Source: a virus
Taxonomy: Duplodnaviria; Caudoviricetes
IMG/VR virus record: IMGVR_UViG_3300035520_001860
Location: 32,001-96,000 of that record
DNA: 64,000 bases
Strand: one strand, 5' to 3'
In this document: in pieces, positions 23,115 through 60,268 of the stretch
Position numbering within the stretch: the first letter of the stretch is position 1
Layout: every line of letters starts with the position of its first letter
The notes under the pieces: model-generated
What the model was told of the DNA's origin: nothing
The model's input: only the letters and a program-made list of their open reading frames with translations
The model's database searches: none
Program-made: the position numbers and the translations under genes

Positions 23115-24029
23115 ATGATTAATCCTAACGTACATTATAGTGTGACTGGCAGATATATGGATGGTCAAAAGATAATTGGGTATCACTTAGTAGGTGAAGA
23201 TGGAAGCCAGTCTCAAGAGAGTAAAGATAGAGTAATATACTTAATAAAACAAGATATAATCACTAACATGAGAGTTCAAACAGGACCAGATGGTGATATT
23301 ATACTTAGAGGAAAAGGAATAAACCTTAATAAATTACCTGTATATGACCCAAATAAGGATAAATATCGTAATACAGAGAGTTCACAAACAGTAGCAAATA
23401 CACATGTTAGTACTAAAAATTCAACAGTACAAGGTGCAAGTCCAATGGGACAGTACACAATAGTACGAAGAATAATGTTTAAGAGTCAGTGTCTTGGATA
23501 TGAATTGAGAGATCATAGTGGACAGGTAATAAGAAAGAAAAGAGCAGACGTTATAAAATTAGCAGCACAGAGATTAATTAGTAACGCAATAGCACAGAGA
23601 TATACAAGAGAGGGAAGTGGAACAACTGAACTTATTCTGAGAGGTCAAGGGTGTGATTTAAACAAGTTACCTATATTGATTGTAAATGAACAGGGTAAAA
23701 TAGTTGATCCAACTAAAGACACTAGTGGACTTACAGTTAGAAGCGCTTACATGAAACATAGTGGAGTAATCATAGATACTATACATGATAAGAAAGTTCC
23801 TTTCAAAGCTGGAGACTTTATTATTTGTGGACCTAACGGTGAAATATTAATAAAGGACAGAGGAAGTGTAGAAAGGGAGTATAGAAAAGATACTGAGAGT
23901 CAAAGTGCAGTATGTGATGATTACTTAAGTATAACTAAGAGCTACTTTATTGAGGTATTTGGTAACAAACCGATTCAATTATCAGATCAGTTTGTTAGGA
24001 GATGGATTATACTAAAGCCCGCGAGTTAA
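23115..24029 (+). CDS. Protein with two DUF3892-like domains and a C-terminal PGDYG-like domain
   Basis: AAGGTGG RBS before ATG at 23115; two repeats ending ILRGKGINLNKLP and ILRGQGCDLNKLP; GDFIICGPNGE motif. Confidence 0.65.
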   Translation: MINPNVHYSVTGRYMDGQKIIGYHLVGEDGSQSQESKDRVIYLIKQDIITNMRVQTGPDGDIILRGKGINLNKLPVYDPNKDKYRNTESSQTVANTHVSTKNSTVQGASPMGQYTIVRRIMFKSQCLGYELRDHSGQVIRKKRADVIKLAAQRLISNAIAQRYTREGSGTTELILRGQGCDLNKLPILIVNEQGKIVDPTKDTSGLTVRSAYMKHSGVIIDTIHDKKVPFKAGDFIICGPNGEILIKDRGSVEREYRKDTESQSAVCDDYLSITKSYFIEVFGNKPIQLSDQFVRRWIILKPAS

Positions 24030-24050
24030 GAATGGACATAAATAATTGAG

Positions 24051-24093
24051 AATAAATAGCATCTAGCATTTTAGCTGGGTGCTATTTATTTTT
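24051..24093 (+). terminator. Rho-independent terminator
   Basis: AATAAATAGCATCTAGC-loop-GCTGGGTGCTATTTATT plus T tail. Confidence 0.8.
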
Positions 24094-24488
24094 GTGTAAA
24101 ATAACCTATTAGTATAGCAGTAGTGTACTATTAAAAAACAATTTACAGTGTTCCTACAATTTTTAAAAATTATAATCATAAATAATAGATTAGTGGTTAA
24201 TAAAAATTAAAAATTTAACAACAAAATACTATTTTACAGCGTCAAACAATTAATATATGTAGCATTTGGTAAAAATTGAGTAAGCACCAAAGGTTAAAAT
24301 TTTGGGTTGATTTTTGAAAAAATTTCTGTGTAGGTTAATTTGAAAAGATTATGAGATAATATACTATTACAAGACTGTAGTACAAAACATATTAGCAATT
24401 TTACTATTTTAAATACCAATTACAAATAAATATAACCTAAATAAATACAGTTTTATATGATAGGTAGTTTTAATTTTTACATTTTATT

Positions 24489-27425: not shown

Positions 27426-27649
27426 CTATATTTTAACAAGATACAAAACAATTATACAGTGAAATTATAAAAATTGACACTAATAAATATAGGGTAATCT
27501 GTGCTAATTTTTAGTATACAGTATTATATATTTGAATAATCTGGGCAAACAGCATTATTGTATAATAAGTATGATTTATTATTAGTTAATTATTTTAAAA
27601 AATAATTGATTAAAACATGTAAAATTTATTTAGGAGGACATACGGAAAG

Positions 27650-29781: not shown

Positions 29782-31374
29782 ATGCAACCGACTTTTCAAG
29801 ATTTGACTGGACAAAAATTTGGTGAAATGACAGTAGTTGGATATAACAGGGATGTAAGAAGATGGATTTGTGTTTGTGATAAAGGGCACTATTGTTACAA
29901 GCAAACAACACACTTGAAAACAAGACATAATATATGTAAACAGTGTAAAGCACAAAAAGATGCTTCATTAGTTGGAAGTAAAATAGGAGAATTGACAGTA
30001 CTAAAACAGGTATCAAGCCAAGAATATTTATGTCAATGTTCATGTGGAAAGACATGTATAAAACAAAAAGGACACTTAGTAGGTGGATATGTAAAATCAT
30101 GTGGACATTTGAACAAAAATAAATTTGAGAATTTAAGAGGTCAAAGATTTGGAAAACTTGTAGCAGAAGAGTATGTATCAAAAGAGGCAGGTTGGAAATG
30201 CAAGTGTGATTGCGGTAATATAGTAAATGCTCTACCAGCTAATCTAAAAAACGGAAGTACAGCTTCATGTGGATGTAGTAATCCATATAAATTAATAGAT
30301 ATAACAAACAAGAGATTTGGAAAATTAGTAGCAGTAAGACACATATACAGAGGATTGTGGGAGTGCCAGTGTGATTGCGGTAACATATGCGAAAAACAAT
30401 CATATGATTTAAGAAATAACAGAGTTATATCATGTGGATGTGAGTCTAGCGAATCATATAAAGAGTTTCAGTTATATGAATATATAAGGTCAATATACAA
30501 CGGAGAAATTATAAAGCATAACAAAACAATATTAAAAGGTAAAGAGATAGATATATACATACCAGAAAAACATATTGCAATAGAGTTCAACGGTAACTAT
30601 TGGCATTCTTTAAAAGAAAAAAGATATCATCAAGATAAAACAATAGACTGCGTAAAACAGAAGATAAGACTGATTCATATTTTTGAGTATGAATGGGATA
30701 ACGATATTATACAAGAAAAATTAAAAATATACTTAAAGACAATATTAAATGAAAGTGAAGCTAAAGTAATATATGCAAGAAACACAAATGTACACGAGAT
30801 AAATCAGGATATAGCACAAGAATTTTTAAATAAGTATCATTTACAAGGATATGCATCATCTACAATTAACATAGGATGTTATTATAATGAACAACTGATT
30901 GGAATGATGACATTTGGTAAACCAAGATTTAACAACTCCTACGAATATGAAATAGTAAGACTATGTTGGTTGCCTACAATACATGTAGTTGGGGGCTTGG
31001 AAAAATTATTTAGCTATTTCCTTACAAAATATAATCCACAATCTATTATAACCTATGTAGACATTTCCAAGTTTACAGGTAATTCATATTTAAGAATAGG
31101 GTTTAAGTTGATACTACCAGACCCTATAACTAAGCCAAACTATGTATGGGTATCACACCATGGCAACACAGTAAAAAAACGGTATCAAACACAAAAAGCA
31201 GACCTTGTTAAAAATGGACTTGGAACAGAAGACCAAACCGAAGATGAGATTATGGAATCATTAGGTTATTATAAAATATATGATTGTGGTAATATCAAAC
31301 TAGAGTGGGTTAAGGAGGATAACAATAAATGGGAAATCACGACTATATACAAAAGGGAAATAACGGTGGTATAG
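29782..31374 (+). CDS. Homing-endonuclease-like protein, copy 3: four Zn-finger repeats, PD-(D/E)xK nuclease, Mom-like GNAT domain (no HTH linker)
   Basis: Same repeats; EIDIYIPEKHIAIEFNGNYWH; same C-terminal domain as the other copies. Confidence 0.8.
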   Translation: MQPTFQDLTGQKFGEMTVVGYNRDVRRWICVCDKGHYCYKQTTHLKTRHNICKQCKAQKDASLVGSKIGELTVLKQVSSQEYLCQCSCGKTCIKQKGHLVGGYVKSCGHLNKNKFENLRGQRFGKLVAEEYVSKEAGWKCKCDCGNIVNALPANLKNGSTASCGCSNPYKLIDITNKRFGKLVAVRHIYRGLWECQCDCGNICEKQSYDLRNNRVISCGCESSESYKEFQLYEYIRSIYNGEIIKHNKTILKGKEIDIYIPEKHIAIEFNGNYWHSLKEKRYHQDKTIDCVKQKIRLIHIFEYEWDNDIIQEKLKIYLKTILNESEAKVIYARNTNVHEINQDIAQEFLNKYHLQGYASSTINIGCYYNEQLIGMMTFGKPRFNNSYEYEIVRLCWLPTIHVVGGLEKLFSYFLTKYNPQSIITYVDISKFTGNSYLRIGFKLILPDPITKPNYVWVSHHGNTVKKRYQTQKADLVKNGLGTEDQTEDEIMESLGYYKIYDCGNIKLEWVKEDNNKWEITTIYKREITVV

Positions 31375-32342
31375 TGATAGACTGCAGAAGTGTTCCCGAT
31401 AAAGGATTTTTGAATGCAAACAAAACTAAGATAATAGCAAAAGCAAAGATAATGACAAAGGAAGAAAAAGCTAATTCACAGGATTTTGTTCCTGGTGGAC
31501 CAGATGTTATTCTAAAATACTCAACTGGAGAAACTAAACTAATTTCACGTAAGGAATTAGCAGCTAATTTTGTGCACTCCAGTGGAAATAAAATAATAAT
31601 ACCATTTTTAAAATCAAATACACAATACTTTGTATATGGTACATGCAATGAAAAATACAAGGTAATGAAATTACCAGAAAATTGCATAGCAATATTACCT
31701 AATGGTACAAGGTCAAAACCTGGATGCTACATAGTAGCTAAGGAAGGTGCAAATGGTCAAATAGATAAGAGTACAATAACATCAATGCCAAAACAAATGT
31801 TTAAGAAGTCATTTAAGGTTCCTATGCAACCAGCTATACAAAAACACATGCATGGTGCTTCAAAATCTAGCAAATCATTCAAACTCTTTAATAGAAACAA
31901 TGCACCTAAAATGAATATGCGTGCTTCAATGAAATCAAATATAGATACATCAGAAATTGGAATGAATCCAGCAAATATTCATGTAAGTTCTATAAATGAT
32001 AGACCAAAAACTTCAACAACATGGACACCTACATTGAATAATAGACCTAATATAAAAGTACAGACACAAAAGAACCCAATTCAACCAACAGTGAAAGAAG
32101 CCACACATCAATATCCATATAAAGTAACTGCATCACTTGTAGATATTGAAGGCAAGCAGATAGGTTATGTATTACTTGAATATAAGAGTGGTAAAACAAG
32201 AAATGTTAAGATGAATGAGCTTATGCAACTGTGCAAGATGAAAGCAGTAGAGAATGTGAAACTTGTACAAAACACATCAGGTAAATTATATTTACAAGGA
32301 AATGGCTGCAGTTTAAAGAGTTTACCTAAGATAATGAAATAG
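31329..32342 (+). CDS. Protein with N-terminal PGDYG-like domain(s) and a C-terminal DUF3892-like domain
   Basis: AAGGAGG RBS inside the upstream ORF; C-terminus YKVTASLVDIEGKQIGYVL...LYLQGNGCSLKSLP. Confidence 0.6.
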   Translation: MGNHDYIQKGNNGGIVIDCRSVPDKGFLNANKTKIIAKAKIMTKEEKANSQDFVPGGPDVILKYSTGETKLISRKELAANFVHSSGNKIIIPFLKSNTQYFVYGTCNEKYKVMKLPENCIAILPNGTRSKPGCYIVAKEGANGQIDKSTITSMPKQMFKKSFKVPMQPAIQKHMHGASKSSKSFKLFNRNNAPKMNMRASMKSNIDTSEIGMNPANIHVSSINDRPKTSTTWTPTLNNRPNIKVQTQKNPIQPTVKEATHQYPYKVTASLVDIEGKQIGYVLLEYKSGKTRNVKMNELMQLCKMKAVENVKLVQNTSGKLYLQGNGCSLKSLPKIMK

Positions 32343-32363: not shown

Positions 32364-35300
32364 ATGCAGAAAAATATATGGTTATTAGTTGGGAAAGTAA
32401 CAGAAGGAAACAAAGTAAAAAGTTACATATTCATGAATAACAATGGTAATACACAATTTATTCAGCACAGAAGCCTAGACAGGTTTTATAAAGAAAATAC
32501 AGTTTTAAATGTGCAGGTAAGTAATGGAAGTATTACTGGTAGAGGAATAGCAATAAGTAATATTCCAAGATATAGTAATCAACAAGGTTTCGGTTTACAG
32601 CAGATAGGTGGTATGTCACAACAAGAGATAATACAACAATGTCAACCACTAATAGACCAATATAGGCAAAAAGAGCAAGAGAAAGAACTAAAGAAGCAAC
32701 AAGATACTAAAAATGAGCAGAAAACAAAACAAGAAGAATATATAAATAATAAATTAATACTATTAGGTAATATAATAGACATAGCATTAGTTATGAAAGA
32801 CATAACTAATGAAATGGCTAGTAATGGGCAATTCACAAGATACTTAAAACAGATAGATATAGACAATGCAGAAGGAGATAGTCTAACAAACTTAATTCAA
32901 AGACAGGGTGTAAATGGCTTAGCCAATGGAATAGAGGATAGATTAGACAGATTAAATAATAGAATAACAAAATATAATTTAGACTCCAGCTTTAAGTCAA
33001 AAATATCAGAATTAAAGAATAGTTGTGAAACATTAAAGAAGCTACATCAAAACACTAAAAATATTATTAAGGATAATAAAGAACAAGAAGCACAGCAGCA
33101 AAAAGAAGAAAGAGAAGCATTAAAACAGCAACAAACAGAAGAGATTGAAGTAGTCGACGAATTAGATGAAGATGCAATAGCACTGGAAGATGAAGTAGAA
33201 ACAGTAGATGAGATTTCAGAAGACGCAGTTGAAATCGAAGATGAAATCGAAACAGTAGACGAAATAGAAGAAGATGCAGTTGCAATCGAAGAAGAAACTG
33301 ATGATAAAGAATGGCAGGAATATCTAGAACAAAGTAAGAAAGAACATGAAGAATTTGAAAAGCGAATGGAATTTCGTGAAGAATTTATGAATAAAAGGGA
33401 TAAACTTCATCAACAATTATATGATGTATTAAATGAACAAAAAACATTAGTGTTCAGACAAGGATTGTTACAGAATATAATGATATCAAAAACCAATACA
33501 AAATCAGGAATACAGTTTACAGAATATAAGGGGATACCAGATATACAAGTATGGTTTACATTTAATGAAGAGGAAGATGATGATAAGTTAACATACCGAT
33601 TTGATTTGGAAGCAACTATACAGATTTATGGTTCTACTTACAAAAAGAATTATAGAAACATACAAACAAAAGCAGACATAGAAGACGTAGTAAGTAAGAC
33701 AATACATGATGAACATATAAATAAAAAATTAAAGTCAATAAGAGAGGCTAGAAACAAAGAGGAAAATGAGAAGTACAAGAATGTATCAGAATATGAGTTT
33801 GGGAATATAGTGAATAACAAACAAAATAAACTATGTAGATATTTAAGTAACAACTTACATAGTAGGTCAACATTAATAGTAGAGGATTTAACGAAAAACC
33901 TATATTCTGTGGAACATAAAGACTTTAGAAATATGAGTATATCTTTTATGTTAAATAATGATACAGATTACATTAAGCAAATATGTAATTTTACATTAGA
34001 AGCAACTATACATTTTTATGATGATAACACTAAATATAAAGAGACTTATAAAAACATTAGTACCAAAGAAGATATAGATGATGCAGTAAGTAGAACAATA
34101 AGTGGTAGCTATATAAAAGAAAAGAAACAATTAGCAAAAGAGCAGAAACAGCTGGCAAAAGAGCAAAAACAAATAAACGTAGAAAATAAACAGACAAATA
34201 AAGAACAGGAACAAATAGTAAAAGAAGAAACAAAAATTAATAAAAACATAGAAAGTCATATAGAAGAAATAGAAGTTGGAAAAGAAGTTGTAGAAAGTTA
34301 CAAGGAATTATCAGTAAAAGAATTTGAAATAAAAACAAATAATAAGTACAACAAGATAATTAAGTATATAAGTGATGTGGTATACAGCCAAAAAACATTT
34401 GTATATGACGATAGTGTTGGTGTAAATGGCGTAATCAGCAGCACAGCATCTGGTATAACGCACTATATAAAACATAAAGAATATTCTCCTTATGAAATAA
34501 GAATCACAATTTGGCCTCACATAAAAAGAAATTTTCCGAATAGAACATGTGCATACTCTATGGTAGTAACAATAAGAACTTCTTTGCTTGCTGAAACTGG
34601 TGATTGTTATGAAGGTACAAAAACTTATAATAATATAACCACCAAAGAGGACGTAGAGAATGTATTACACAGTACATTTAATGATAAACATATATTAGAT
34701 ACAATAGCAACTCTAAAAAATGGTAAACAACAGGTAGATAAAGAGCAGAAACAAGTAAATGCAGAAAATAAGAAAGTAATTAAGGAAGAGCAAAAACACA
34801 TTGAAGCTGAACAGAAACTACAAAAGGAAAAATTAACTATACAGGATGTATTAAATGAATTATTCTTTGGCAGTGATGAGTACAAATCAGAAAAATCCAA
34901 ATTAGAAGGTATAACGGATGTATATAGAAGCTGGGATAGTTTCGAGTTTAAAACAATAAATATTTTAACAGTAATATATAAAGGTGTTAATAATACGTTT
35001 AAAGTAAAAGCAGAGATACCACCAATATTTAGAGTTTCAGGAGTACAATATAATGAATATAAGTTTCCTGGAGATTATACTGTCAAAATAAACAGACAAA
35101 ATTTAGATAAAGCTAAAGAGTCATTACATAACTATATAGATACAACACTTAATCAGTATAGTGCAATTGATTCTGAAATGAATAATTTTTTGAATAGATT
35201 TAAAAGTATAAGCAAAGAACTAGATAAAGCACGTAGAGAGAATATCGACAATTATTGTGCAGATTATGTACTAGTAAATCTAAGCTGTTCTATGGGATAT

Positions 35301-36110
35301 AGTAGCAAGCATTACAGTAACCTTTATGAGTATATTGATAAGAATAACAACAATATTTTATCAGAAGCACACGGAATATTAAAGGAAGGAGAAATGTATT
35401 GTGGGACACTATATAATCCATTTGGTATGAAAACAACATTAAATTTCTTTGAAGAAAGCATAAAACATAAACAAGAACAGATTAATGAGAAAGAGAAAAA
35501 GCAGAGAGAACAACAAGGGGCAGAGGAAAGAAAACAAAGAGAAAAAGAAGAGGCAGAATCAGAAATAATAAACGATATAGAACGACTAATGCGACATATA
35601 GATAGTACAATAGATTTATTAGATTATCAAAATGCAGATGATGGAGCTTATGAAGAATATGTAAATTTATTCGCATACAAGGCAGCATCAGTAATCAAGC
35701 AGCTTGGTAATAGTTTAGCTGGATTATTTGATATAAGTAACACTGAAGATATGTATATGAGAGAGACAGCTATAGGAAGAAACCCAGAAATGTATGTATC
35801 ACAATTTAATGATGCAATGGAGGAAGTGGATAGTGTAATAAAGTCTATTGTTGAAATAATTGAAATAATGGGAGCAGACCAATTATCAGAATTAAAAAGC
35901 TTTAATAATAGTATAGATAACATACTGTATAATATAGATGATGAAAACAAGATATTAGGGTATAGTTCATATAACGAAGAAGAATATCATCAACAATTTA
36001 GAGCAGAATACTCAACATTTATTGAAGGTAACTATAAAGAAGATGGACTAATCAATAAAATAAATAACTTAAAAGACATTGTAGAAAGCAGAATATCTGA
36101 GGTTGAATAA
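32364..36110 (+). CDS. Large 1248-aa protein: N-terminal DUF3892-like domain, coiled coils, acidic repeats and three internal domain repeats
   Basis: N-terminus ...ITGRGIAISNIPRY; repeats ending YRNIQTKADIEDVVSKT, YKNISTKEDIDDAVSRT, YNNITTKEDVENVLHST. Confidence 0.7.
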   Translation: MQKNIWLLVGKVTEGNKVKSYIFMNNNGNTQFIQHRSLDRFYKENTVLNVQVSNGSITGRGIAISNIPRYSNQQGFGLQQIGGMSQQEIIQQCQPLIDQYRQKEQEKELKKQQDTKNEQKTKQEEYINNKLILLGNIIDIALVMKDITNEMASNGQFTRYLKQIDIDNAEGDSLTNLIQRQGVNGLANGIEDRLDRLNNRITKYNLDSSFKSKISELKNSCETLKKLHQNTKNIIKDNKEQEAQQQKEEREALKQQQTEEIEVVDELDEDAIALEDEVETVDEISEDAVEIEDEIETVDEIEEDAVAIEEETDDKEWQEYLEQSKKEHEEFEKRMEFREEFMNKRDKLHQQLYDVLNEQKTLVFRQGLLQNIMISKTNTKSGIQFTEYKGIPDIQVWFTFNEEEDDDKLTYRFDLEATIQIYGSTYKKNYRNIQTKADIEDVVSKTIHDEHINKKLKSIREARNKEENEKYKNVSEYEFGNIVNNKQNKLCRYLSNNLHSRSTLIVEDLTKNLYSVEHKDFRNMSISFMLNNDTDYIKQICNFTLEATIHFYDDNTKYKETYKNISTKEDIDDAVSRTISGSYIKEKKQLAKEQKQLAKEQKQINVENKQTNKEQEQIVKEETKINKNIESHIEEIEVGKEVVESYKELSVKEFEIKTNNKYNKIIKYISDVVYSQKTFVYDDSVGVNGVISSTASGITHYIKHKEYSPYEIRITIWPHIKRNFPNRTCAYSMVVTIRTSLLAETGDCYEGTKTYNNITTKEDVENVLHSTFNDKHILDTIATLKNGKQQVDKEQKQVNAENKKVIKEEQKHIEAEQKLQKEKLTIQDVLNELFFGSDEYKSEKSKLEGITDVYRSWDSFEFKTINILTVIYKGVNNTFKVKAEIPPIFRVSGVQYNEYKFPGDYTVKINRQNLDKAKESLHNYIDTTLNQYSAIDSEMNNFLNRFKSISKELDKARRENIDNYCADYVLVNLSCSMGYSSKHYSNLYEYIDKNNNNILSEAHGILKEGEMYCGTLYNPFGMKTTLNFFEESIKHKQEQINEKEKKQREQQGAEERKQREKEEAESEIINDIERLMRHIDSTIDLLDYQNADDGAYEEYVNLFAYKAASVIKQLGNSLAGLFDISNTEDMYMRETAIGRNPEMYVSQFNDAMEEVDSVIKSIVEIIEIMGADQLSELKSFNNSIDNILYNIDDENKILGYSSYNEEEYHQQFRAEYSTFIEGNYKEDGLINKINNLKDIVESRISEVE
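33141..33293 (+). repeat. Three imperfect 51-bp coding tandem repeats (17 aa, acidic)
   Basis: EIEVVDELDEDAIALED / EVETVDEISEDAVEIED / EIETVDEIEEDAVAIEE. Confidence 0.8.
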
Positions 36111-37354: not shown

Positions 37355-38419
37355 ATGCATTACTTAATGAATAAGAACAATCCAGTAATAGAAATAGAAA
37401 GTGCAAGAGTTATTGACATAGATAAAGTACCATTGTCATTAAGAGTTAGAAACTTAAGCTATTCAACAATATACACTTGGATTTCTCATAGAGCACTACC
37501 ATTAAGTAGAAAGAACGCAGATAAAATATATAAAACACTTGGACTTCCTAGAGATAATCAAGAATATGAACTAATGTGCATAACACATGGTTTATCAATC
37601 AATGATAACTTTTGGATTGCAAATGAGACAGAGGTTGGAAGAATAAAATATGAGGATATAAATCTGTTTACAAATTCATTAAACAAGTCATTGTATTTAG
37701 TGGCATTATGTGGTGATGATAACTTCACAATAACTGATAAAAACATATCAGCAGAATACACAGGACAGGGAACATATCCAAAATGCTTTATAAGAGAGAA
37801 AGATGGAATATACTTATATAAGAGTGGTCCAGTAAACGAAATAACAAACGAGATATACGCTGGATACATAGCACAGTTAATAGGATTTAAGTCAGCAAGC
37901 TATGAGTACAAGAAACTAAACAATATTGATTGTGTAAAATCAAAAATAATAACTGGACTTAATGAAAATTGGGAATCAGCATTTTTATTAAGTGAATACT
38001 TTAATGATGCATTTAAAGCAATTCCACAGGATATAGCTATCAGTAAGTACACAATAGAGTATTCTAATATGATTATATTTGATGCACTAGTACTAAACGA
38101 TGATAGGCATATGAAAAATTGGTCATTTAGTATAGATGCTAACACAAACATTATCACTGGTATAGCACACAGCTATGATTATAATAAGGCATTTGAAGCA
38201 GATAAAAATTCAAAAAGTGGATTGTTATTTGACGGATACAGAAAAATGAGTATATTAAGTGCCGCAAAGAGAGCTTATAGTGAATTTGGAACATCACTAA
38301 GGTTAGACTATTTATACAATGTTCTTGATATGATAAACATTAGAATAAATAAAGACACTATGAAAAACAGAATATTATACATAATGGGTAAAAAGTCAAA
38401 TCAAGATAATTGCTATTAG
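37355..38419 (+). CDS. HipA/CtkA-like Ser/Thr kinase
   Basis: Gly-rich loop TGQGTYPK, LYKSG, NEIYA, catalytic DALVLNDDRHMKNWSF, YDYNKAF. Confidence 0.8.
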   Translation: MHYLMNKNNPVIEIESARVIDIDKVPLSLRVRNLSYSTIYTWISHRALPLSRKNADKIYKTLGLPRDNQEYELMCITHGLSINDNFWIANETEVGRIKYEDINLFTNSLNKSLYLVALCGDDNFTITDKNISAEYTGQGTYPKCFIREKDGIYLYKSGPVNEITNEIYAGYIAQLIGFKSASYEYKKLNNIDCVKSKIITGLNENWESAFLLSEYFNDAFKAIPQDIAISKYTIEYSNMIIFDALVLNDDRHMKNWSFSIDANTNIITGIAHSYDYNKAFEADKNSKSGLLFDGYRKMSILSAAKRAYSEFGTSLRLDYLYNVLDMINIRINKDTMKNRILYIMGKKSNQDNCY

Positions 38420-52505: not shown

Positions 52506-53483
52506 ATGAGTATAAGTGTAAGAGAAGTATTAGACAATGAGCTAATGTCAGAGGGTACACTTAGGGGTATACCAACAAGATGTAAGTGTGGTGCACCTAT
52601 GGTATTTAATGACTCATTGAGAAATATACAGTGTTCAAACAAAAAATGTAAATACAAACTTGTATCAAGAATAAAAAGATTTGCTAAAATAACTAATATA
52701 AATATTGATGATACAATAGCACTTGAACTAATACAGTATCTTGGTATAGTTACTCCATATCAAATATTAATGATAGACCAGGTGGTAGAAGCTAACAAGC
52801 AGAGTGTTAGAAATATACATAACATATTAGAAATAGCAAATGGCATAAAGAAATATAAGAGTACAAAACATAAAATATATGAAGTAGCGGCACTTTGTGG
52901 TATAAGTACAATAGAGAATATAGCAAAACAACTATTTGAAGGTTTTAATTCATTAGATGATGTGTACAATGAATTAGATAAATGTCAAGTATCATATATA
53001 AGTGACAGACTTGGCATACATAATAATGATTGTGCACAGTTTTCAGTTGATATATACAACAAGCTTATTGAACTAAAAGACGAAATGATGTTTGGAGAGG
53101 CCCAGTTAGAAATTGATGAGTATCCAAATAAAATGGATATAGTCATAACAGACAATGTACTGCCATTTATAAATAAGTCAGAATACATAGAATTTTTAAA
53201 TTCAAAATACAATATATGTTTTAATATGACAACATCAGTTTCTGATAATACAGATATATTGATTAGCAACTCAACACCAGCAAGTAATAAAATGCATAGC
53301 GCAACAGTAATAAACAATAGATATGTTGCTAATGAGATGAATCAGAATAAGCTTAATCTATCAGATATTAACAAGAAAGTAGATGGAGAATTAAAGCCAC
53401 TTGGTGTAAAAGTACTTATATGCACTTCAAATGAGTTAGAAACTAGGTTAAATGAATTGGAGGCGCATGATGGAGGCAAATAA
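52506..53483 (+). CDS. LigA C-terminal half homologue (Zn finger, HhH region, BRCT)
   Basis: IPTRCKCGAPM...IQCSNKKC Zn finger; ALCGISTI...AKQL...FNSLDD HhH; IVIT...SVSDNTDILIS...SNKMHSA BRCT. Confidence 0.65.
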   Translation: MSISVREVLDNELMSEGTLRGIPTRCKCGAPMVFNDSLRNIQCSNKKCKYKLVSRIKRFAKITNINIDDTIALELIQYLGIVTPYQILMIDQVVEANKQSVRNIHNILEIANGIKKYKSTKHKIYEVAALCGISTIENIAKQLFEGFNSLDDVYNELDKCQVSYISDRLGIHNNDCAQFSVDIYNKLIELKDEMMFGEAQLEIDEYPNKMDIVITDNVLPFINKSEYIEFLNSKYNICFNMTTSVSDNTDILISNSTPASNKMHSATVINNRYVANEMNQNKLNLSDINKKVDGELKPLGVKVLICTSNELETRLNELEAHDGGK

Positions 53484-53937
53484 GTATAAGGTGGTAGGAA
53501 AAGAGATAAAAGGAATAGAAGTTGTTGGACTAACCATAGAAAATTCTGAAGGTAGCAAAAGGAATATAAATTTACCAGACGCAATTAAATTATCAAGAGG
53601 AGAAACATTTAGTAATGCACACTCAGTATTTGACAGTGTTAATTCAGAATATAAGATTAGCATAGATGGAGGTTTAGATAATTTAGCAATATCAGATAGA
53701 ACAAAAGGAACAAGACTAAAACTTATAAGTAGAATAATCAATTCAGATAATGTTTGTGTTGGTTACAAAGCACAAGATAGTAAGGGCAAGATATTCAAAT
53801 TAAGTATATCAAAGATATGGGAATTGGCAGAACAAGGTTCTGTAATAGGCGTTGTAGCAAAAGTGAGTAATAAAGGTAAGGTACTATTAAGCACTGATGA
53901 ATGTAAGCTAGACGAGTTACCTATTTTTAGAAATTAA
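53470..53937 (+). CDS. Protein made of two DUF3892-like domains
   Basis: GGAGG RBS; YKVVGKEIKGIEVVGLTI...GGLDNLA and LKLISRIINSDNVCVGYKAQD...CKLDELP. Confidence 0.65.
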   Translation: MEANKYKVVGKEIKGIEVVGLTIENSEGSKRNINLPDAIKLSRGETFSNAHSVFDSVNSEYKISIDGGLDNLAISDRTKGTRLKLISRIINSDNVCVGYKAQDSKGKIFKLSISKIWELAEQGSVIGVVAKVSNKGKVLLSTDECKLDELPIFRN

Positions 53938-54090: not shown

Positions 54091-54134
54091 ATATACAAAA
54101 TACTTTAAATGAAAAAGGAGAACATAACTAAAAA

Positions 54135-54638
54135 ATGATTAACAATGAAATTAAGTCCAATGTAGTCAACGTAGTATTGGAGGAGGGCAAGGGCTTAAAA
54201 CAGATGAGCCTCGAGGAAGCAATGGCACTTGCAGAGGAAACTGGAGAAGATGTAGTTTGTCTTAATGACAATACAGAGATTCCTGTTGTAAAGATCATGG
54301 ACTACGGAAAATTTCAGTATGAAAAAGCTAAGAAGGCAAAGGATAACAAAAAGAAAGCCAGATTAGCAGCTCAGGATACTAAGGATGTTGTAATTTCAGA
54401 CTCCATAGCAGAGCATGACTTAAAGATAAAGGCTAACACAGCAGACAGAATCATCAATGAAGGAGATAAGGTAAGACTTATAATCAGATACAAAGGCAGA
54501 GCAGTAGCTTTCATTAACGAGGGACCTAAAAAGCTTCAGGCACTTGTTGATAAGATGGAATCACAGTTCACTGTAACTGCTAGACCAAAGATTGATGGTA
54601 AACAGGTGTCAATGACATTAACACCTAGTAAAAAATAG
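54135..54638 (+). CDS. infC: Translation initiation factor IF-3
   Basis: MINNEIK...MSLEEAMALAEE..DVV...PVVKIMDYGKFQYE; IAEHDLKIK...GDKVRLIIRYKGR...PKIDGKQVSMTLTP. Confidence 0.95.
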   Translation: MINNEIKSNVVNVVLEEGKGLKQMSLEEAMALAEETGEDVVCLNDNTEIPVVKIMDYGKFQYEKAKKAKDNKKKARLAAQDTKDVVISDSIAEHDLKIKANTADRIINEGDKVRLIIRYKGRAVAFINEGPKKLQALVDKMESQFTVTARPKIDGKQVSMTLTPSKK

Positions 54639-54651
54639 ATAATACATATAG

Positions 54652-54708: not shown

Positions 54709-54737
54709 ATTTCATAGGCATATTAAAGGAGACAATC

Positions 54738-55325: not shown

Positions 55326-55333
55326 ACATTTAG

Positions 55334-55365
55334 TAGAGATATGTATTTGCATATCTCTATTTTTT
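55334..55365 (+). terminator. Rho-independent terminator
   Basis: TAGAGATATG-loop-CATATCTCTA plus T run. Confidence 0.75.
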
Positions 55366-55525
55366 ATATACTTAGTACTATTTTAAACACAATATACAAA
55401 CATACACATCAAATGTTAAAAACAATATTGACTAGTATTGAAGCATTAACATAATAATACAGTAAAAAATTTAAAAAATTTGAAATTTACATATTTAGTA
55501 TACATTGAAAGGTAGGATATTAACA

Positions 55526-57772
55526 ATGAAAATACATCTTATAGCTGTACATTGTGATTATAAGGGCGATATAGTTGGATTTAGATTATTCGATTCAGAA
55601 GCGTCTGGTAATAAGACAGTAGTTATGGATCAAGAATATGCTAACGTAGAAGCACTGGTTAAGTCTAATAAGGTGAATATAATAGGCATTGAATATTCTG
55701 GTGGTAAACTTAGAGGAAGTAATGGTAGCTTTGACAGATATCCTGCATTATACAATAATAAGATAAATAGACAGGCTATAGTTATAATTGGTACTATTGA
55801 TGATGTAGGATATAGAGTATGTAACTACGAAGGTAAATCAACAGATGAAACAGTGCAGAAATTAGTAAGTTACAGTAATAATGTTCCTATTGCAAATGGC
55901 AAACTGGTAACTAAATCAGACGGAAAACAGTTTATAAGTGCTATTAGCGGTACATATGATAACATACCAGTGTCAAAATCAACATTAACAAAACAAGTAC
56001 AAACACCTAAGGTTGAAAGTAAACCTAAGGAAACCAATTCAGATACTACACAAAATAATATTGAAGATAAGAAAGCTGAAGCAAAGAAGAAATTAACTAA
56101 ACAGGTACAACTTAGAGGAAATGACCCAAGATTTCCAGATGTTATAACAGGTATTAGATTGAAAGAATCTCATATGAAAGATATAGATGAAAGTACTGGA
56201 ATGACACTTGAGCAGAAGTTACTTGCAGCTATACTTGCAGTAAGAGAGACAAGACCATTCTATTATGCATTGTTATCCATATTAAAAAGAGAAGAAGTAC
56301 CTGAGGATGATGAGGTACAAACAGCGGCTGTTTCTATAAATACATTATATATTAATCCTAAGATAATTAGAGAATGTAGTATACCACAGCTAACATTTGT
56401 ATTAATGCATGAAGTCTGTCATATAGCAATGAAGCATAGAATAAGAGAGAATAATAGAGAGCACGATGCTTGGAATATTGCATGCGATTTTTATATAAAT
56501 AAAAGCTTGGCAGAAGAATTTAATGTACAGAAACTTGATACTGATACATACATGGGAGATAAGAAAAGTACAGGAGTACATAATATAAACATACCATCAT
56601 GGGTACTTTATGCAGATGACGTTGATATAGATACAGATACTCCAGAGAAATTATATGAGGAGCTCATGCAGCTACAGAAAGAAATGCAACAGCAGACGGG
56701 CGGACAAGAAAGCGGCAGCCAAGGTCAAGGTCAGAGTCAGGGTCAGGGTCAAGGTCAGGGAGGTAACTCATCTGGAAATTCTAACTCAAGTTCTAATGAG
56801 CAAGATGACGAACAAGAGCAAGGAAATGGACAAGGAAATAACGAAAATAACAGTGATAATAAACAAGGACAAAACAGAAACAAGAAGAAGTCACAGAATG
56901 GTTCATCTGATAAAGATGAAAACTCAAATGGAAATGGATCAAACGGTGGACAAAACAAAAAGAAACGTAGATTCCTTGGTAAAGAGTTTAGAGGTAGCAC
57001 AATAAATGAAGATAAAGCCGACATGGTAGATGACAAGGATTCAGTTGGTAAGTCACAGGAACAAATGGAACAGTCAGCAGCAACACTGGTTAATCAGGCA
57101 GTATCAATTTATTTACAGACAAACCAATGGGGAGGTGCATCTGATGGATTTCTTGAGAGGTACATTCAAGAAGCAATAGCACCTAAAGTAAATTGGAAAA
57201 GTGTACTGAAAAGATTCTTGACACGTGCCAGTCAGTTAGAGTATACATTTGCACATCCAGATAAGAGATTTTTAGGTAGAACAACATTTGATGGTAGACG
57301 TCAAGTATTTGCAGGTCCACATAAAGTAGATAATGGTGAGCTTGAGAATATTAAGATATGCATAGATACATCTGGTTCAATATCAAATGAGGATTTAGGT
57401 GTAGCATTAAGTCAAATAAAGGATATGTTTAAACAGTATAAGGCAGAAGCAGAATGTTTATACTGGGATACAAGTGTATGTGCAGTATATCCGTTTAAAG
57501 AGGTTGACGAATTGGTTAGATGCAAACCTATGGGTGGTGGTGGAACAGACGCGAACTGTATATTTGATTACTTTGAAACAAGTGATGACTACAGATTACA
57601 TAGAAAACAGCAACCATCACTTATAATAGTGTTTACAGATGGATACTTTGGGGATGTTGATAAGAAATACAGTAGAAAGTACAAAAATACTGTATGGGTA
57701 ATAAGTGGTAGTTATAAAGATTTTACACCACCATTTGGAGTTGTAGCACCATTTAAAAATGAAGTCATGTAG
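55526..57772 (+). CDS. DUF2201-type metallopeptidase-vWA protein with two extra N-terminal DUF3892-like domains
   Basis: TAAV...LYINP, HEVCH zincin motif, WNIACDFYIN; Q/G/N linker; vWA MIDAS CIDTSGSI, GGGGTD, VFTDG. Confidence 0.85.
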   Translation: MKIHLIAVHCDYKGDIVGFRLFDSEASGNKTVVMDQEYANVEALVKSNKVNIIGIEYSGGKLRGSNGSFDRYPALYNNKINRQAIVIIGTIDDVGYRVCNYEGKSTDETVQKLVSYSNNVPIANGKLVTKSDGKQFISAISGTYDNIPVSKSTLTKQVQTPKVESKPKETNSDTTQNNIEDKKAEAKKKLTKQVQLRGNDPRFPDVITGIRLKESHMKDIDESTGMTLEQKLLAAILAVRETRPFYYALLSILKREEVPEDDEVQTAAVSINTLYINPKIIRECSIPQLTFVLMHEVCHIAMKHRIRENNREHDAWNIACDFYINKSLAEEFNVQKLDTDTYMGDKKSTGVHNINIPSWVLYADDVDIDTDTPEKLYEELMQLQKEMQQQTGGQESGSQGQGQSQGQGQGQGGNSSGNSNSSSNEQDDEQEQGNGQGNNENNSDNKQGQNRNKKKSQNGSSDKDENSNGNGSNGGQNKKKRRFLGKEFRGSTINEDKADMVDDKDSVGKSQEQMEQSAATLVNQAVSIYLQTNQWGGASDGFLERYIQEAIAPKVNWKSVLKRFLTRASQLEYTFAHPDKRFLGRTTFDGRRQVFAGPHKVDNGELENIKICIDTSGSISNEDLGVALSQIKDMFKQYKAEAECLYWDTSVCAVYPFKEVDELVRCKPMGGGGTDANCIFDYFETSDDYRLHRKQQPSLIIVFTDGYFGDVDKKYSRKYKNTVWVISGSYKDFTPPFGVVAPFKNEVM

Positions 57773-57776
57773 AAAA

Positions 57777-57814
57777 AATGAAGTAAATGCTGAAATAACA
57801 GCATTTACTTCATT
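57777..57814 (+). terminator. Hairpin (possibly a bidirectional terminator)
   Basis: AATGAAGTAAATGCTG-AAATAA-CAGCATTTACTTCATT perfect 16-bp stem. Confidence 0.75.
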
Positions 57815-57849
57815 ATAATAAAAAATTAAAGTTTTAAATTTAGCAGCAG

Positions 57850-58065
57850 TTGAGAGGTAGCATTGAGAAAATGATTATTCAAGTAATGAAAAAAGGGAAG
57901 ACCGAGGGATATGTTAAAAGCATAAATTATAATGCATGTGAGACAAAACTTACTGATGATAAGTCAAATGCTAAGAAATATTCAAGTGAAGACAAAGTGC
58001 ATTATGATATAGACTTTTTGTCAAAGGTTTATGGCAATAGTGAATATGTTTTTATTTATGAATAA
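57850..58065 (+). CDS. Small hypothetical protein
   Basis: ORF between the vWA and AAA genes; likely start ATG at 57871. Confidence 0.55.
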   Translation: MRGSIEKMIIQVMKKGKTEGYVKSINYNACETKLTDDKSNAKKYSSEDKVHYDIDFLSKVYGNSEYVFIYE

Positions 58066-58088
58066 TTAGAAAGGTAGGAAACAGAAAA

Positions 58089-59246
58089 ATGGCTGAGACA
58101 TTAAATATGAGAGAAGCTAGTGTAAAAGAGATAACAAACTTTATAAAAGATTTGTTTAACATGGAGATTTATGATCCAGTAATAATTCTTGGTAAGATGG
58201 GCATGGGAAAAACAGCATCCTTAAAAGAACTTGCTAAAGAGCTTGGGATTGGATATTGCGAGCTTAGATTAGTAAATATGACAGAGACTGATATGCTCGG
58301 AATCCCGACTATTAGTAGTACAGGCACTACAACTTATGCTAGTAACGATTTACTCCCAATAGAAACTAGAGATGGTGAACGTGGAATTTTAGCATTAGAC
58401 GAAATTACTTCTTGTTCAGCAGTAATGAGAGCAGCAGCTTATCAGTTACTTGATGGACAGAGAGCTTTAGGTAACTACAAACTTCCAGAGAAGTGGATAT
58501 GTGTTGGACTTGGTAATGGACCAGATGATGGTGGTGTGTTCAATGGTGCTGAGGCAGCTTTATTTACAAGATGTTACGGATTTAGAGTAGCATTAAGTCT
58601 TGAAGCTTGGAAGTCATGGGCACTTAAGAATAACATTAATCCTTCTGTTACTGCTTATCTATCATATGCACCTGACAAGTTACATGTTTATAATCCAGAT
58701 GAACTTGATGGATTATGCCCAACACCTCGTACTTGGGAGAAATTAAGTAAGTTACTTAACGCGAAAGAGAAATACAATAATGGTGAGCCTGTTCCAACAG
58801 ACGTAGCAGAGTTCTTAGCATCAGCATCTATTGGAACTAAGGAAGCTGGATTCTTCTCTGGATTCTACGAGTATAACTTAAAGAAGGAAGTATTAAATGT
58901 TACAGATATACTTGATGGAAAAGCAGATGGTAGAAAAGTTGGAGCAAATGAGCCTCAGATAGTTTACATAGCTATAGAATCTATGGTTAAGAAACTTAAT
59001 GAAGAGATTGAAAGCTCTAAGAGTAAAACAGGTAAAGTTTCTGGCGAAGTGATGAAAAGATTAGGAAATGCAGTAAACTGGTTAATAGCTGCTTCTAATA
59101 CTAAGTTAGACTACGGTGTAATGGGACTTAGAGACTTAGCATCTGGTATTGATTCATTCATTGAACTTACATGTACAAATGAGTTTGATGAAATGTGTCC
59201 TGAATTTTTGAAGTTCTCTATTGATAACGGAAATGTAGTATCTTAG
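58089..59246 (+). CDS. MoxR-like AAA+ ATPase (partner of DUF2201-vWA proteins)
   Basis: LGKMGMGKT Walker A, ETDMLGIP, ILALDEI Walker B, AYQLL, CPTPRTWE sensor. Confidence 0.85.
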   Translation: MAETLNMREASVKEITNFIKDLFNMEIYDPVIILGKMGMGKTASLKELAKELGIGYCELRLVNMTETDMLGIPTISSTGTTTYASNDLLPIETRDGERGILALDEITSCSAVMRAAAYQLLDGQRALGNYKLPEKWICVGLGNGPDDGGVFNGAEAALFTRCYGFRVALSLEAWKSWALKNNINPSVTAYLSYAPDKLHVYNPDELDGLCPTPRTWEKLSKLLNAKEKYNNGEPVPTDVAEFLASASIGTKEAGFFSGFYEYNLKKEVLNVTDILDGKADGRKVGANEPQIVYIAIESMVKKLNEEIESSKSKTGKVSGEVMKRLGNAVNWLIAASNTKLDYGVMGLRDLASGIDSFIELTCTNEFDEMCPEFLKFSIDNGNVVS

Positions 59247-59257
59247 TTGGAAGGTAG

Positions 59258-60268
59258 GTGAAAGACATGGCTGCACAGCTTGGTATAGTTGTAGGTATTG
59301 ACTCTGATGGAGTAAATTTAGCATACAGAGTACTAGTTGCAACAATAGCTCCTAAGCAGGGAGAAGAAAAACAATTCAACTGGAAGTTTGATTGTAAGTT
59401 AATGTCAGAAGCACAGGTAATACAGTTACTACAGAGAAAAGTTAAGTGGCTAAACATCAAGTTGGAGAACAATAAGATTAAAGGTTCTAGTGGAGACCTT
59501 AAGAGATTTGAAAGTAAGGGAAGTAGGCCTTATGTAATAATATCGCAACTTGTAAACTCTGATGGAAAACTTATAGGATATAAAGTAGCTGACTATAATG
59601 GTGGAGTAAAGAACATTCGTATTAAAGAAGTTATAGCATATGGAGCAAGAGCAACAAAACAGGGTTGTATTCCAGTACAAAATGCAATATTTGTTCCAGC
59701 AACTAAAGATTCAGATGGAACAGTGAAGTCAGCACACTACAAATCATATCCTGGATGTAACTTCATTGAAGAAAGAATAGTTGTAAATAGAAACACAGAT
59801 GCAGATACAAGAAGAGTTAGCACAAATAAAAACGAAAAAACTCTTAACAAACTTGAAGAGATATACACTAAGGAACAGATTGAACAGCTTAAAATTGGTA
59901 AGAAAAATGGTGTAGATATAAGAATATATGCAAACCCAGCTCTATCAGCAGAACAGATGGCAGCATTAAGAAATGGTTTACAACAAAAGGTAAATGTAAG
60001 ACCATTTGCATTTCCTGAATACACAGTTGAGTGCATGAAGTACTACACGATGGAAGCTAAATACGGTATGGATATAAGAAAGTATCTTAGTCCAAAGTAC
60101 TCAATAGCACAGATTGCAGAGTTATCAATAGCTGTAAATGAAGGACTTGATGTTTCAAAAATGTCAGACCCAAGTTTATCTGTTAGAAAAATGCAAGAAA
60201 GAAGAATACGTCTTGAAAATGGAGTATTCCATGAGATTGATGTAAACATGGACGGCAGTTGGATTTAG
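59258..60268 (+). CDS. Protein with two N-terminal DUF3892-like domains and C-terminal helical repeats (Q..EL..G...G.DI..YA.P)
   Basis: YVIISQLVNSDGKLIGYKVADYNG; repeats EQLKIGKKNGVDIRIYANPALSAEQM and AELSIAVNEGLDVSKMSDPSLS. Confidence 0.65.
   Translation: MKDMAAQLGIVVGIDSDGVNLAYRVLVATIAPKQGEEKQFNWKFDCKLMSEAQVIQLLQRKVKWLNIKLENNKIKGSSGDLKRFESKGSRPYVIISQLVNSDGKLIGYKVADYNGGVKNIRIKEVIAYGARATKQGCIPVQNAIFVPATKDSDGTVKSAHYKSYPGCNFIEERIVVNRNTDADTRRVSTNKNEKTLNKLEEIYTKEQIEQLKIGKKNGVDIRIYANPALSAEQMAALRNGLQQKVNVRPFAFPEYTVECMKYYTMEAKYGMDIRKYLSPKYSIAQIAELSIAVNEGLDVSKMSDPSLSVRKMQERRIRLENGVFHEIDVNMDGSWI

What the first reader, a model, noticed from the sequence alone, without database searches (positions are those of the whole stretch)
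23115..60268. A ~70-aa DUF3892-like domain expanded to about 10 copies on six unrelated proteins
Seen: the pattern [Y/L]x[V/I][V/I/T]xx..xxG.xx[I/V]GYx[L/V]x[D/N]xxG....xxxx[V/L]xx[L]....[I/V]xN...........[L/I]xG.G..LxxLP recurs twice in 23115..24029, once at the C-terminus of 31329..32342, once at the N-terminus of the 1248-aa protein, twice in 53470..53937, twice at the N-terminus of the DUF2201-vWA peptidase and twice at the N-terminus of 59258..60268. Known: DUF3892 proteins are small stand-alone domains ending in L..LP, and DUF2201-vWA proteins normally lack such an extension. Inference: this is an element-specific adaptor, used as a homotypic interaction tag, a secretion/packaging address or a ligand sensor, linking a peptidase/AAA machine and other cargo into one network. 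It is analogous to the shared effector-associated domains of MoxR-vWA conflict systems.
Basis: partly seen in the sequence, partly recalled or inferred. Interest (0 to 1): 0.82.

Follow-up and report, generated by a model that had tools for sequence, protein, structure and literature searches.

The report
Tandem DUF3892-like tag on six proteins
A small protein domain, distantly related to the uncharacterised DUF3892 family and usually present as a two-copy unit, is attached to six otherwise unrelated proteins of a very large phage-like or plasmid-like element and its relatives; it probably brings them to one shared target, but its function is untested.

Summary
All ten ~75-aa segments are copies of one domain. 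Eight are significant against profiles that exclude their own protein. One (first copy of the DUF2201 peptidase) needs a position-specific profile. One (first copy of 59258..60268) rests only on a confident structure model and conserved motif positions.

The window's copies do not reach Pfam DUF3892. However, 16 of 149 outside homologues do, and the model's best shape match is a DUF3892 cluster (TM 0.76). It is therefore a divergent branch not captured by Pfam.

The unit is an old, differentiated pair: a near-neutral first copy and a basic second copy. It is not element-specific: 1091 cluster representatives exist in public data, half of the best 150 stand-alone and half fused to about 30 unrelated C-terminal regions. 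Three related records carry 8-17 matches each, with conserved gene order that includes IF3 and SmpB.

My best reading is a shared nucleic-acid-binding (RNA/ribosome or DNA) targeting module, at confidence 0.4. A protein-hub or packaging adaptor is the main rival. Self-association could not be judged. Earlier notes of this scan mention classical DUF3892 in defence contexts on other DNA, but not this tandem family.

The parts
23115..24029 (+). Gene for a 304-aa protein (start at M41 of ORF 22995..24029): tandem pair plus a conserved ~113-aa C-terminal domain. It is a core gene of the lineage.
   Evidence: Orthologues begin at MVNPN. There are 139 clusters at E<=1e-5, on contigs up to 720 kb. Its C-domain is shared by 38 of the 150 best family representatives.
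23115..23354 (+). Copy 1 (first-position type) of 23115..24029
   Evidence: LOO iE 2.5e-8; outside profile 7e-30; scores higher with the first-copy HMM, 106.9 vs 71.0 bits
23436..23687 (+). Copy 2 (second-position type, net charge +8)
   Evidence: LOO 1e-4; outside profile 5e-26; second-copy HMM 92.4 vs 67.4 bits; charge
31329..32342 (+). Gene for a 337-aa protein: unknown N-terminal 259 aa plus a single C-terminal copy
32106..32336 (+). Single C-terminal copy, second-position type, charge +8
   Evidence: LOO 1e-11; outside profile 9e-16; second-copy HMM 55.3 vs 45.3 bits
32364..36110 (+). Gene for a 1248-aa protein with acidic and Lys/Glu-rich low-complexity stretches and internal repeats; single N-terminal copy
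   Evidence: no Pfam or PHROG family
32364..32582 (+). Single N-terminal copy, first-position type
   Evidence: Not recovered by LOO. Outside profile 4.7e-7; first-copy HMM 32.1 bits.
53452..53937 (+). Gene for a stand-alone tandem pair (161 aa, or 155 aa from the ATG at 53470)
   Evidence: AF2 pLDDT 93.4; 74 of the 150 best outside representatives have this architecture
53464..53694 (+). Copy 1, acidic (net charge -3)
   Evidence: LOO 2.6e-5; outside profile 3e-11
53698..53931 (+). Copy 2, basic (+6)
   Evidence: LOO 2.9e-8; outside profile 2e-19; matches a DUF3892 Atlas cluster at TM 0.76, 71 aa, 2.1 A
54135..54638 (+). Translation initiation factor IF3 homologue, conserved neighbour of the stand-alone pair
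   Evidence: IF3_N 6.5e-21, IF3_C 1.2e-18; the adjacency is kept in G001, G002 and G003
55505..57772 (+). Tandem pair + DUF2201_N metallopeptidase + Gly/Gln/Ser/Asn-rich linker + DUF2201 vWA-like domain
   Evidence: DUF2201_N 2.8e-35 (residues 236-464), DUF2201 1.3e-12; phrog_1314 covers only residues 233-752; same fusion in P0014 and in a viral Atlas cluster
55532..55759 (+). Copy 1, divergent
   Evidence: Not recovered by LOO. Outside profile 0.017; first-copy HMM 20.9 bits vs 4.3 for the second-copy HMM.
55766..55978 (+). Copy 2, divergent
   Evidence: LOO 1e-3; outside profile 9e-5; second-copy HMM 28.9 bits
58089..59246 (+). MoxR-like AAA+ ATPase, partner gene of the DUF2201-vWA protein
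   Evidence: AAA_5 5.9e-5; phrog_1297 6.5e-61; syntenic in the three related records
59258..60268 (+). Tandem pair + C-terminal solenoid of about five ~26-aa helical repeats; core gene of the lineage
   Evidence: 96 orthologue clusters; AF2 pLDDT 94.5, pTM 0.82; weak similarity to helical-repeat proteins, best natural hit BurrH Z 5.3
59267..59518 (+). Copy 1, very divergent with an insertion; supported by structure only
   Evidence: No sequence support. Same secondary-structure order. Shares PDB hits 7z8b_C and 7byj_A with copies of 53452..53937. Conserved G13/Y23/N66/G76/L81/F84.
59525..59761 (+). Copy 2 (charge +6)
   Evidence: LOO 1.5e-7, first half only; second-copy HMM 24.3 bits; same PDB hit 8tch_B as copy 2 of 53452..53937
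61069..61542 (+). SmpB homologue closing the conserved block
   Evidence: SmpB 3.5e-53; syntenic in the three related records

Best explanation
The ~75-aa unit is a divergent, Pfam-invisible branch of the DUF3892 superfamily. Its fold is three strands, a helix, a beta-hairpin and a closing L..LP turn.

Its normal form is an old two-domain cassette, with a near-neutral first copy and a basic second copy. The cassette has been moved as a unit onto the N-termini of many unrelated proteins. It also exists on its own.

In this lineage of very large phage-like or plasmid-like elements of animal guts it marks a conserved set of proteins. These are a core 304-aa protein, a 337-aa protein, a 1248-aa repeat protein, a free pair, a MoxR-associated DUF2201 metallopeptidase-vWA protein and a helical-repeat protein.

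I infer that it is a targeting module that binds one common ligand, most likely nucleic acid. That ligand could be structured RNA or the ribosome, or duplex DNA. The different C-terminal activities would then be brought to the same place. The free pair could act as a competitor or regulator of that site.

Shown: homology, fold, tandem organisation, modular fusions, and conservation across relatives. Inferred: the ligand and the targeting role.
For: - Homology of the copies.
- DUF3892 link: 16 of 149 homologues hit PF13031, best 1.5e-6. The best shape match is a DUF3892 cluster at TM 0.76 over 71 aa, rmsd 2.1 A.
- Tandem cassette: 148 of the 153 outside proteins with a scored domain (the 150 best representatives plus three fragments) have two copies. 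First- and second-copy profiles each prefer the matching position in all window pairs.
- Modularity: 74 stand-alone versus 74 N-terminal fusions. There are about 30 unrelated C-terminal extensions, almost none known to Pfam.
- Lineage trait: 17, 8 and 12 matches in three related records. The block order PLD-like nuclease, free pair, IF3, tagged peptidase, AAA, tagged helical-repeat protein, SmpB is kept even where the free pair is down to 24% identical.
- Nucleic-acid hints. Second copies are basic (mean net charge +5.2, pI 9.6, n=138), and first copies less so at +2.8. The conserved polar residues are R15, Y25, N53, Q57 and R66. A related single-copy N-terminal form sits on an NAD-dependent DNA ligase in G001. 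Neighbours are IF3 and SmpB here, and ribosomal protein S1 and HPF around P0036 in a more distant relative.
- Published prediction: the DUF3892 fold resembles dsRBD/HPF and may sense RNA or ribosomes (bioRxiv 10.1101/2025.01.14.632903, read).
Against: - There is no direct evidence for any ligand.
- No dsRBD appears among the structural matches. The only hibernation-factor entry is a ribosome complex, 8rd8 chain GR, at Foldseek E 0.14 and TM 0.16, which is not significant. The best PDB match is Z 4.3, and chromo/Tudor-like hits at Z~3 are at noise level.
- First copies in the window are neutral or acidic.
- The gene-neighbourhood signal comes from one broad lineage with generally conserved gene order, so it is not independent. 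Four other contexts showed no translation genes.
- The tagged proteins sit in both a DNA-metabolism block and a translation-gene block, so DNA and RNA cannot be separated.
Confidence: 0.4

Rival explanations
1. Protein-protein adaptor. The pair docks all tagged proteins onto one hub protein of the element or host. Candidates are a particle or packaging component, a transfer ATPase, or the MoxR/vWA machine. Alternatively the pairs bind each other.
For: - The same cassette sits on many unrelated C-terminal domains, mostly at the N-terminus, like effector-associated or targeting domains.
- One tagged protein is the vWA partner of a MoxR-like ATPase.
- A free pair exists that could act as competitor or bridge.
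- The most conserved motif, LRGxGxxLxxLP, closes each copy.
- The record encodes two HerA/FtsK-type ATPases.
Against: - No partner has been identified.
- No canonical VirB4, terminase or HK97 capsid model matches in four related records, so no known export or packaging machine can be named.
- The basic second copy and the DNA-ligase fusion fit nucleic acid at least as well.
Confidence: 0.3
2. Sensor domain of conflict systems. As proposed for classical DUF3892, the pair senses an infection- or stress-derived signal and switches the fused C-terminal effector on. The signal could be a small molecule, a modified ribosome or a foreign RNA. The six proteins would then be offensive or counter-defence effectors.
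For: - DUF3892 is fused to Min-Wnt effectors and occurs in CapH/CapP-controlled operons (papers read).
- The C-terminal regions are diverse and fast-evolving.
- A MoxR-vWA pair is nearby.
Against: - There are no PADLOC defence-family hits.
- The tagged genes are conserved core genes with fixed order over deep divergence, unlike variable defence cargo.
- Among 185,579 species genomes, the core tagged protein (23115..24029 family), the only one scanned for, was found on a single 4-kb MAG contig.
Confidence: 0.15
3. The recurrence is a chance or compositional pattern in a low-GC, Lys/Asn-rich proteome.
For: Three of the ten copies are not recovered when their own protein is left out. Pairwise identity to the reference copy is only 11-23%.
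Against: - Seven copies are recovered at 1e-3 to 1e-11, with no unrelated ORF below E 0.4.
- An outside-only profile finds nine.
- 301 outside representatives score below 1e-10 in 1.84 billion proteins.
- The fold models are confident.
Confidence: 0.02

Closest known systems
Pfam DUF3892 (PF13031)
   Same: Same predicted fold: TM 0.76 over 71 aa to a DUF3892 Atlas cluster. It is linked through intermediate sequences, since 16 of 149 homologues hit PF13031. It is a small domain of unknown function found on mobile or conflict-related DNA and sometimes fused to effectors.
   Different: The window copies score below any reportable threshold with PF13031. The normal form is a differentiated tandem pair rather than a single small protein. 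It is expanded to 6-12 genes per element in one lineage.
Effector-associated domains of MoxR-vWA and other NTPase conflict systems (Kaur, Burroughs, Iyer and Aravind 2020; from my own knowledge, not read here)
   Same: One small domain is shared by otherwise unrelated proteins of one genome, including the vWA partner of a MoxR-like ATPase. It is presumed to join components into one network.
   Different: The domain here is not a described EAD or Death-like fold. No homotypic pairing has been shown. The genes are conserved core genes of a phage-like element rather than a defence island. There are no PADLOC hits.
Phage AAA (phrog_1297) + DUF2201 metallopeptidase/vWA (phrog_1314) gene pairs
   Same: 58089..59246 and residues 233-752 of 55505..57772 match these families end to end, at 6.5e-61 and 6.8e-77.
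   Different: The usual phage protein (394-position profile) lacks the ~230-aa N-terminal tandem pair. The tagged form recurs in P0014, in G001 (910 aa), and in a 50-member viral Atlas cluster.

Membership tests
Pfam DUF3892 (PF13031) | Match to the PF13031 HMM at or above its gathering score (22.3 bits) | tested here: not met
   No hit at E<=1 for any of the six proteins. There were 0 matches in the whole own record at E<=1, and orthologues in G001 reach only 13.9 and 13.5 bits.
Pfam DUF3892 (PF13031) | Homology through intermediate sequences (superfamily membership) | tested here: met
   16 of 149 proteins retrieved with the window's profile hit PF13031, best E 1.5e-6. It is the most frequent family among them.
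Pfam DUF3892 (PF13031) | [quoted passage not shown] | tested here: met
   AF2 model at pLDDT 93.4 with strands 1-3, a helix and a hairpin. The top Atlas shape match is a 100% DUF3892 cluster, TM 0.76 by target, 71 aa, rmsd 2.1 A.
   148 of the 153 outside proteins with a scored domain carry two copies, and half are fused to C-terminal extensions of 60 aa or more.
MoxR-vWA conflict systems with effector-associated domains | Adjacent MoxR-type AAA+ ATPase and vWA protein | tested here: met
   AAA_5 / phrog_1297 at 58089..59246, and the DUF2201 vWA-like domain at 55505..57772. They are syntenic in the three related records.
MoxR-vWA conflict systems with effector-associated domains | The shared adaptor domain mediates homotypic pairing between components | not testable with these tools
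   It needs binding assays. No computation here bears on it either way.
MoxR-vWA conflict systems with effector-associated domains | Belongs to known defence-system families | tested here: not met
   There were no significant PADLOC matches for the seven proteins; the best was E 0.0017 at 15.7 bits.
dsRBD / ribosome hibernation factor-like RNA binders | Structural match to solved dsRBD or HPF domains | tested here: inconclusive
   No dsRBD appears in the 50 best VIA rows (best Z 4.3) or the Foldseek rows. The only hibernation-factor entry is ribosome complex 8rd8, chain GR, at Foldseek E 0.14 and TM 0.16. The two-domain query and small domain size limit the test.
Chromo / Sso7d / Cren7-like small DNA binders | Structural or sequence match | tested here: inconclusive
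   Chromo and Tudor domains score Z 2.5-3.2. 4 of 149 homologues hit Pfam Cren7 at E about 1e-3. Both are at noise level.

The most novel reading that the evidence does not exclude
The tandem DUF3892-like pair is a ribosome- or RNA-docking tag. Through it, a lineage of very large phage-like elements would deliver a conserved tool-kit to host ribosomes next to its own IF3 and SmpB. The tool-kit comprises a MoxR-driven metallopeptidase-vWA protein, a helical-repeat protein, a free competitor pair and others. This would be a modular, domain-addressed system for taking over translation.
Probability: 0.15. Interest if true: 0.8.

Novelty: new variant of a known kind. Interest (0 to 1): 0.5.

Why it matters
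DUF3892 is a widespread domain of conflict and mobile DNA with no tested function. This work defines a large sister branch that Pfam, PHROGs and the PDB do not cover: 1091 cluster representatives, 301 of them below 1e-10.

It shows that the natural unit of this branch is a differentiated tandem pair. It also shows that one lineage of 130-270 kb records, on contigs up to 600-720 kb, uses the pair to mark a fixed set of unrelated proteins.

A 161-aa stand-alone pair with a very confident model is an easy target for binding assays and structure work. Finding its ligand would annotate hundreds of dark-matter proteins at once. It would also tell what the MoxR/DUF2201 pair of large phages acts on.

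Tried and rejected
- Self-association of the free pair. Two copies of 53452..53937 with its alignment (complex prediction) returned 'no answer' (score 0.00, controls not run). This is no evidence either way.
- Sequence search of the PDB with two profiles. Only chance-level hits at E>=0.19.
- Foldseek against the PDB. Nothing at E<=1e-3.
- VIA-align over 48,161 chains. Best Z 4.3 (SaPIbov1 Rep N-terminal region), then chromo/Tudor-like at about 3. Too weak to name a fold relative.
- tblastn of the free pair against the phage and plasmid collections. No match.
- PHROGs and PADLOC give nothing for the domain.
- The word-seeded protein search with the ten-copy profile found only four fragments. 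The exhaustive search was needed.
- The search for related loci with the 68-row alignment failed for lack of a conserved stretch.
- Is the element a tailed phage or a conjugative element? Terminase_6N, HK97 capsid and AAA_10 (VirB4-type) models give no match above cut-off in four related records, one rated 100% complete. The question is left open.
- Atlas leads for the C-terminal domain of 23115..24029 (DHHA1- or PGDYG-like, TM about 0.55, from a low-confidence model) and for the repeats of 59258..60268 are too weak to use.
- A recent DNA duplication is rejected, because paralogues are only 11-23% identical to the reference copy.
Full report
**Setting.** The window is bases 32001-96000 of a 133,586-bp IMG/VR record labelled provirus, with a CheckV completeness of 59%. 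It has about 32% GC, and 114 of 124 ORFs are on the + strand.

The window encodes:
- GyrB-like and topoisomerase IV-A-like proteins, a DnaB-like helicase, SNF2 and ResIII helicases, and a ParB-HNH protein;
- four proteins with weak Mom-family (Pfam PF25680) matches;
- two HerA/FtsK-type ATPases;
- IF3, SmpB, a MoxR-like AAA ATPase, a HipA-like kinase and MscS.

The rest of the record adds a clamp loader, a ClpB-like protein and a lysozyme/NlpC-P60 protein. Translation genes of this kind are described for huge phages and for some large plasmid-like sequences (PMC7162821).

Terminase_6N, HK97 capsid and VirB4-type AAA_10 models give nothing above cut-off in this record or three relatives, one of them rated 100% complete at 250 kb. 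I therefore leave open whether this is a huge phage or a plasmid-like element.

**The observation.** I cut the ten segments and aligned them. Leave-one-protein-out HMMs, searched against all 319 six-frame ORFs of the window, recover seven copies at 1e-3 to 1e-11. No unrelated ORF scores below E 0.4.

Three copies were not recovered this way: the N-terminus of the 1248-aa protein, and the first copies of the peptidase and of 59258..60268.
- A profile of 292 domains taken only from outside proteins finds the 1248-aa N-terminus at 4.7e-7, and the first peptidase copy at 0.017.
- Separate profiles of outside first copies and second copies give the first peptidase copy 20.9 bits with the first-copy model, against 4.3 with the other.
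- The first copy of 59258..60268 has no sequence support.

For that last copy the evidence is structural:
- An AF2 model with 69 orthologues (pLDDT 94.5, pTM 0.82) gives residues 6-85 the strand-strand-strand-helix-strand-strand-short helix order of the domain.
- Its orthologue alignment keeps G13, Y23, N66, G76, L81 and F84, which I read as the family's key positions.
- It hits the same PDB segments (7z8b_C, 7byj_A) as copies of the free pair.

No other copy exists in the 133.6-kb record.

**What the domain is.** Pfam, PHROGs and PADLOC give nothing for the domain in the window proteins. PF13031 finds no match in the whole record even at E<=1.

The exhaustive search of 1.84 billion representatives with the ten-copy profile found 1091 proteins at E<=1e-3 and 301 at E<=1e-10. 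Of 149 of the best 150, 16 hit DUF3892 (best 1.5e-6), which is the most frequent family by far.

The AF2 model of the free pair has pLDDT 93.4. It shows two copies of strands 1-3, a helix, a hairpin and a closing turn. Its best shape match in the ESM Atlas is a pure DUF3892 cluster, with TM 0.76 by target, 71 residues and 2.1 A.

No solved structure is close, by sequence or by fold. It is therefore a divergent branch of the DUF3892 superfamily that current libraries miss.

**Organisation.**
- 148 of the 153 outside proteins with a scored domain carry exactly two copies.
- 74 are free pairs, and 74 have an N-terminal pair followed by 60 aa or more.
- The extensions fall into about 30 unrelated groups. 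The largest (38 members) is the C-domain of 23115..24029. One protein (P0014) repeats the DUF2201 fusion.
- First and second copies are distinct and old. Each window copy scores higher with the profile of its own position. The single copies are second-type (31329..32342) and first-type (32364..36110).
- Second copies are basic (mean +5.2, pI 9.6), and first copies less so (+2.8).
- The conserved positions are R15, G19, G24-Y25, G32, L45, N53, Q57, L65-R66-G67-x-G69, L72 and L75-P76.

**Relatives.** The 304-aa protein and 59258..60268 are core genes of a lineage known almost only from metagenomes. They have 139 and 96 clusters respectively, on contigs up to 720 and 600 kb. The only name attached is 'MAG: Lachnospiraceae hypothetical protein'.

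Among 185,579 species genomes, the 304-aa protein family was found only on one 4-kb contig, from a water-deer caecum MAG. IMG/VR holds three relatives:
- G001, 268 kb: 17 matches in about 12 ORFs.
- G002, 88 kb: 8 matches in 6 ORFs.
- G003, 250 kb: 12 matches in 7 ORFs.

The gene order is kept in all three: PLD-like nuclease, free pair, IF3, tagged DUF2201 peptidase, AAA, tagged helical-repeat protein, SmpB. It holds even where the free pair is down to 24% identical.

G001 also carries a single-copy N-terminal form of about 65 aa on five further proteins. One is an NAD-dependent DNA ligase and another a DUF285 protein. Other contigs of the wider group hold two or three tagged genes side by side.

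**Mechanism.** The following are shown:
- one homologous fold;
- a tandem cassette;
- shuffling of the cassette onto unrelated proteins;
- conservation of the tagged set.

The function is inferred. I favour a common-ligand targeting module that binds nucleic acid, for these reasons:
- The second copy is basic.
- The conserved polar residues are Arg, Tyr, Asn and Gln.
- A related form is fused to a DNA ligase.
- IF3 and SmpB are conserved neighbours here, and S1 and HPF flank P0036.
- DUF3892 is predicted in the literature to have a dsRBD/HPF-like fold that may sense RNA or ribosomes.

The weaknesses are plain. No ligand has been tested. No significant structural match to dsRBD or HPF was found. 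The neighbourhood evidence comes from one broad lineage.

A sensor role as in defence systems is less likely, because the genes are conserved core genes, the core tagged protein is almost absent from cellular genomes, and PADLOC gives no hits.

**Comparison and novelty.** This is the DUF3892 superfamily by fold and by intermediate sequences, but not by the Pfam model. The tandem form, its position-specific differentiation and its expansion in one lineage are, as far as my searches show, undescribed. Seven papers in the searched library hold the term DUF3892, and six were listed. I read two, and neither mentions this form. Earlier notes of this scan concern classical single DUF3892 genes in defence cassettes on other DNA. 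No look-alike of the 304-aa protein was noted elsewhere.

I rate it a new variant of a known kind, of moderate interest.

Noticed in passing
window 54135-54638 and 61069-61542: Full-length IF3 (IF3_N + IF3_C) and SmpB homologues flank the tagged peptidase / AAA / helical-repeat genes. The whole block order is conserved in three related records.
   Followed up: partly
L014:2162-4417 (G001:C1:226161-228416): An NAD-dependent DNA ligase (adenylation, OB, HhH, BRCT) has a ~160-aa N-terminal extension. It opens with a single DUF3892-like domain. The same ~65-aa N-terminal domain heads four other proteins nearby (205, 513, 388 with DUF285, and 316 aa).
   Followed up: partly
G000, G001, G002, G003 (whole records): No Terminase_6N or HK97-capsid Pfam match, and no VirB4-type AAA_10 match above cut-off, even in a 250-kb record rated 100% complete. 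The records carry two HerA/FtsK-type ATPases (window 5828-8026 and 8399-10753). The packaging or transfer mode of this lineage is unclear, and the 'provirus' label is doubtful.
   Followed up: partly
window 10785-12767, 17113-18867, 29782-31374, 42503-44395: Four paralogous proteins of 530-660 aa each give a weak Mom-family (PF25680) match near the C-terminus. This is a second expanded family in the same window, also noted by other first-stage notes.
   Followed up: no
window 59768-60268 (residues 171-336 of 59258..60268): About five helix-turn repeats of ~26 aa (consensus like Y/L-S-x-x-Q-hydrophobic-x-x-L, then G-hydrophobic-D-hydrophobic) form a confident solenoid. PDB similarity is weak: best overall a designed helical-repeat protein (8v2d, Z 7.0), best natural BurrH/TALE-like (Z 5.3).
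   Followed up: partly
window 32364-36110: The 1248-aa protein has an acidic Glu/Asp-rich stretch, Lys/Glu-rich low-complexity stretches, and at least three internal repeats of a ~35-aa motif (T-L-E-A-T-I ... Y-x-N-I-x-T-K-E-D-I). No family was found.
   Followed up: no
L017:4383-5741 (G001:C1:120382-121740): An IS605 OrfB / TnpB (Cas12f-like TNB) gene is inserted between IF3 and the tagged peptidase in G001. It is absent at the corresponding place in the window.
   Followed up: no
window 37355-38419 and 62684-63538: A weak HipA-like kinase match and an MscS-type mechanosensitive channel gene lie on the element.
   Followed up: no
L007:6942-10434: In a more distant relative, a 576-aa tagged protein (P0036) lies between a ribosomal-protein-S1-like gene and a hibernation-factor (Ribosom_S30AE_C) gene. 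The own record has the S1-like gene (G000:C1:119750-120673) but no tagged gene beside it.
   Followed up: partly
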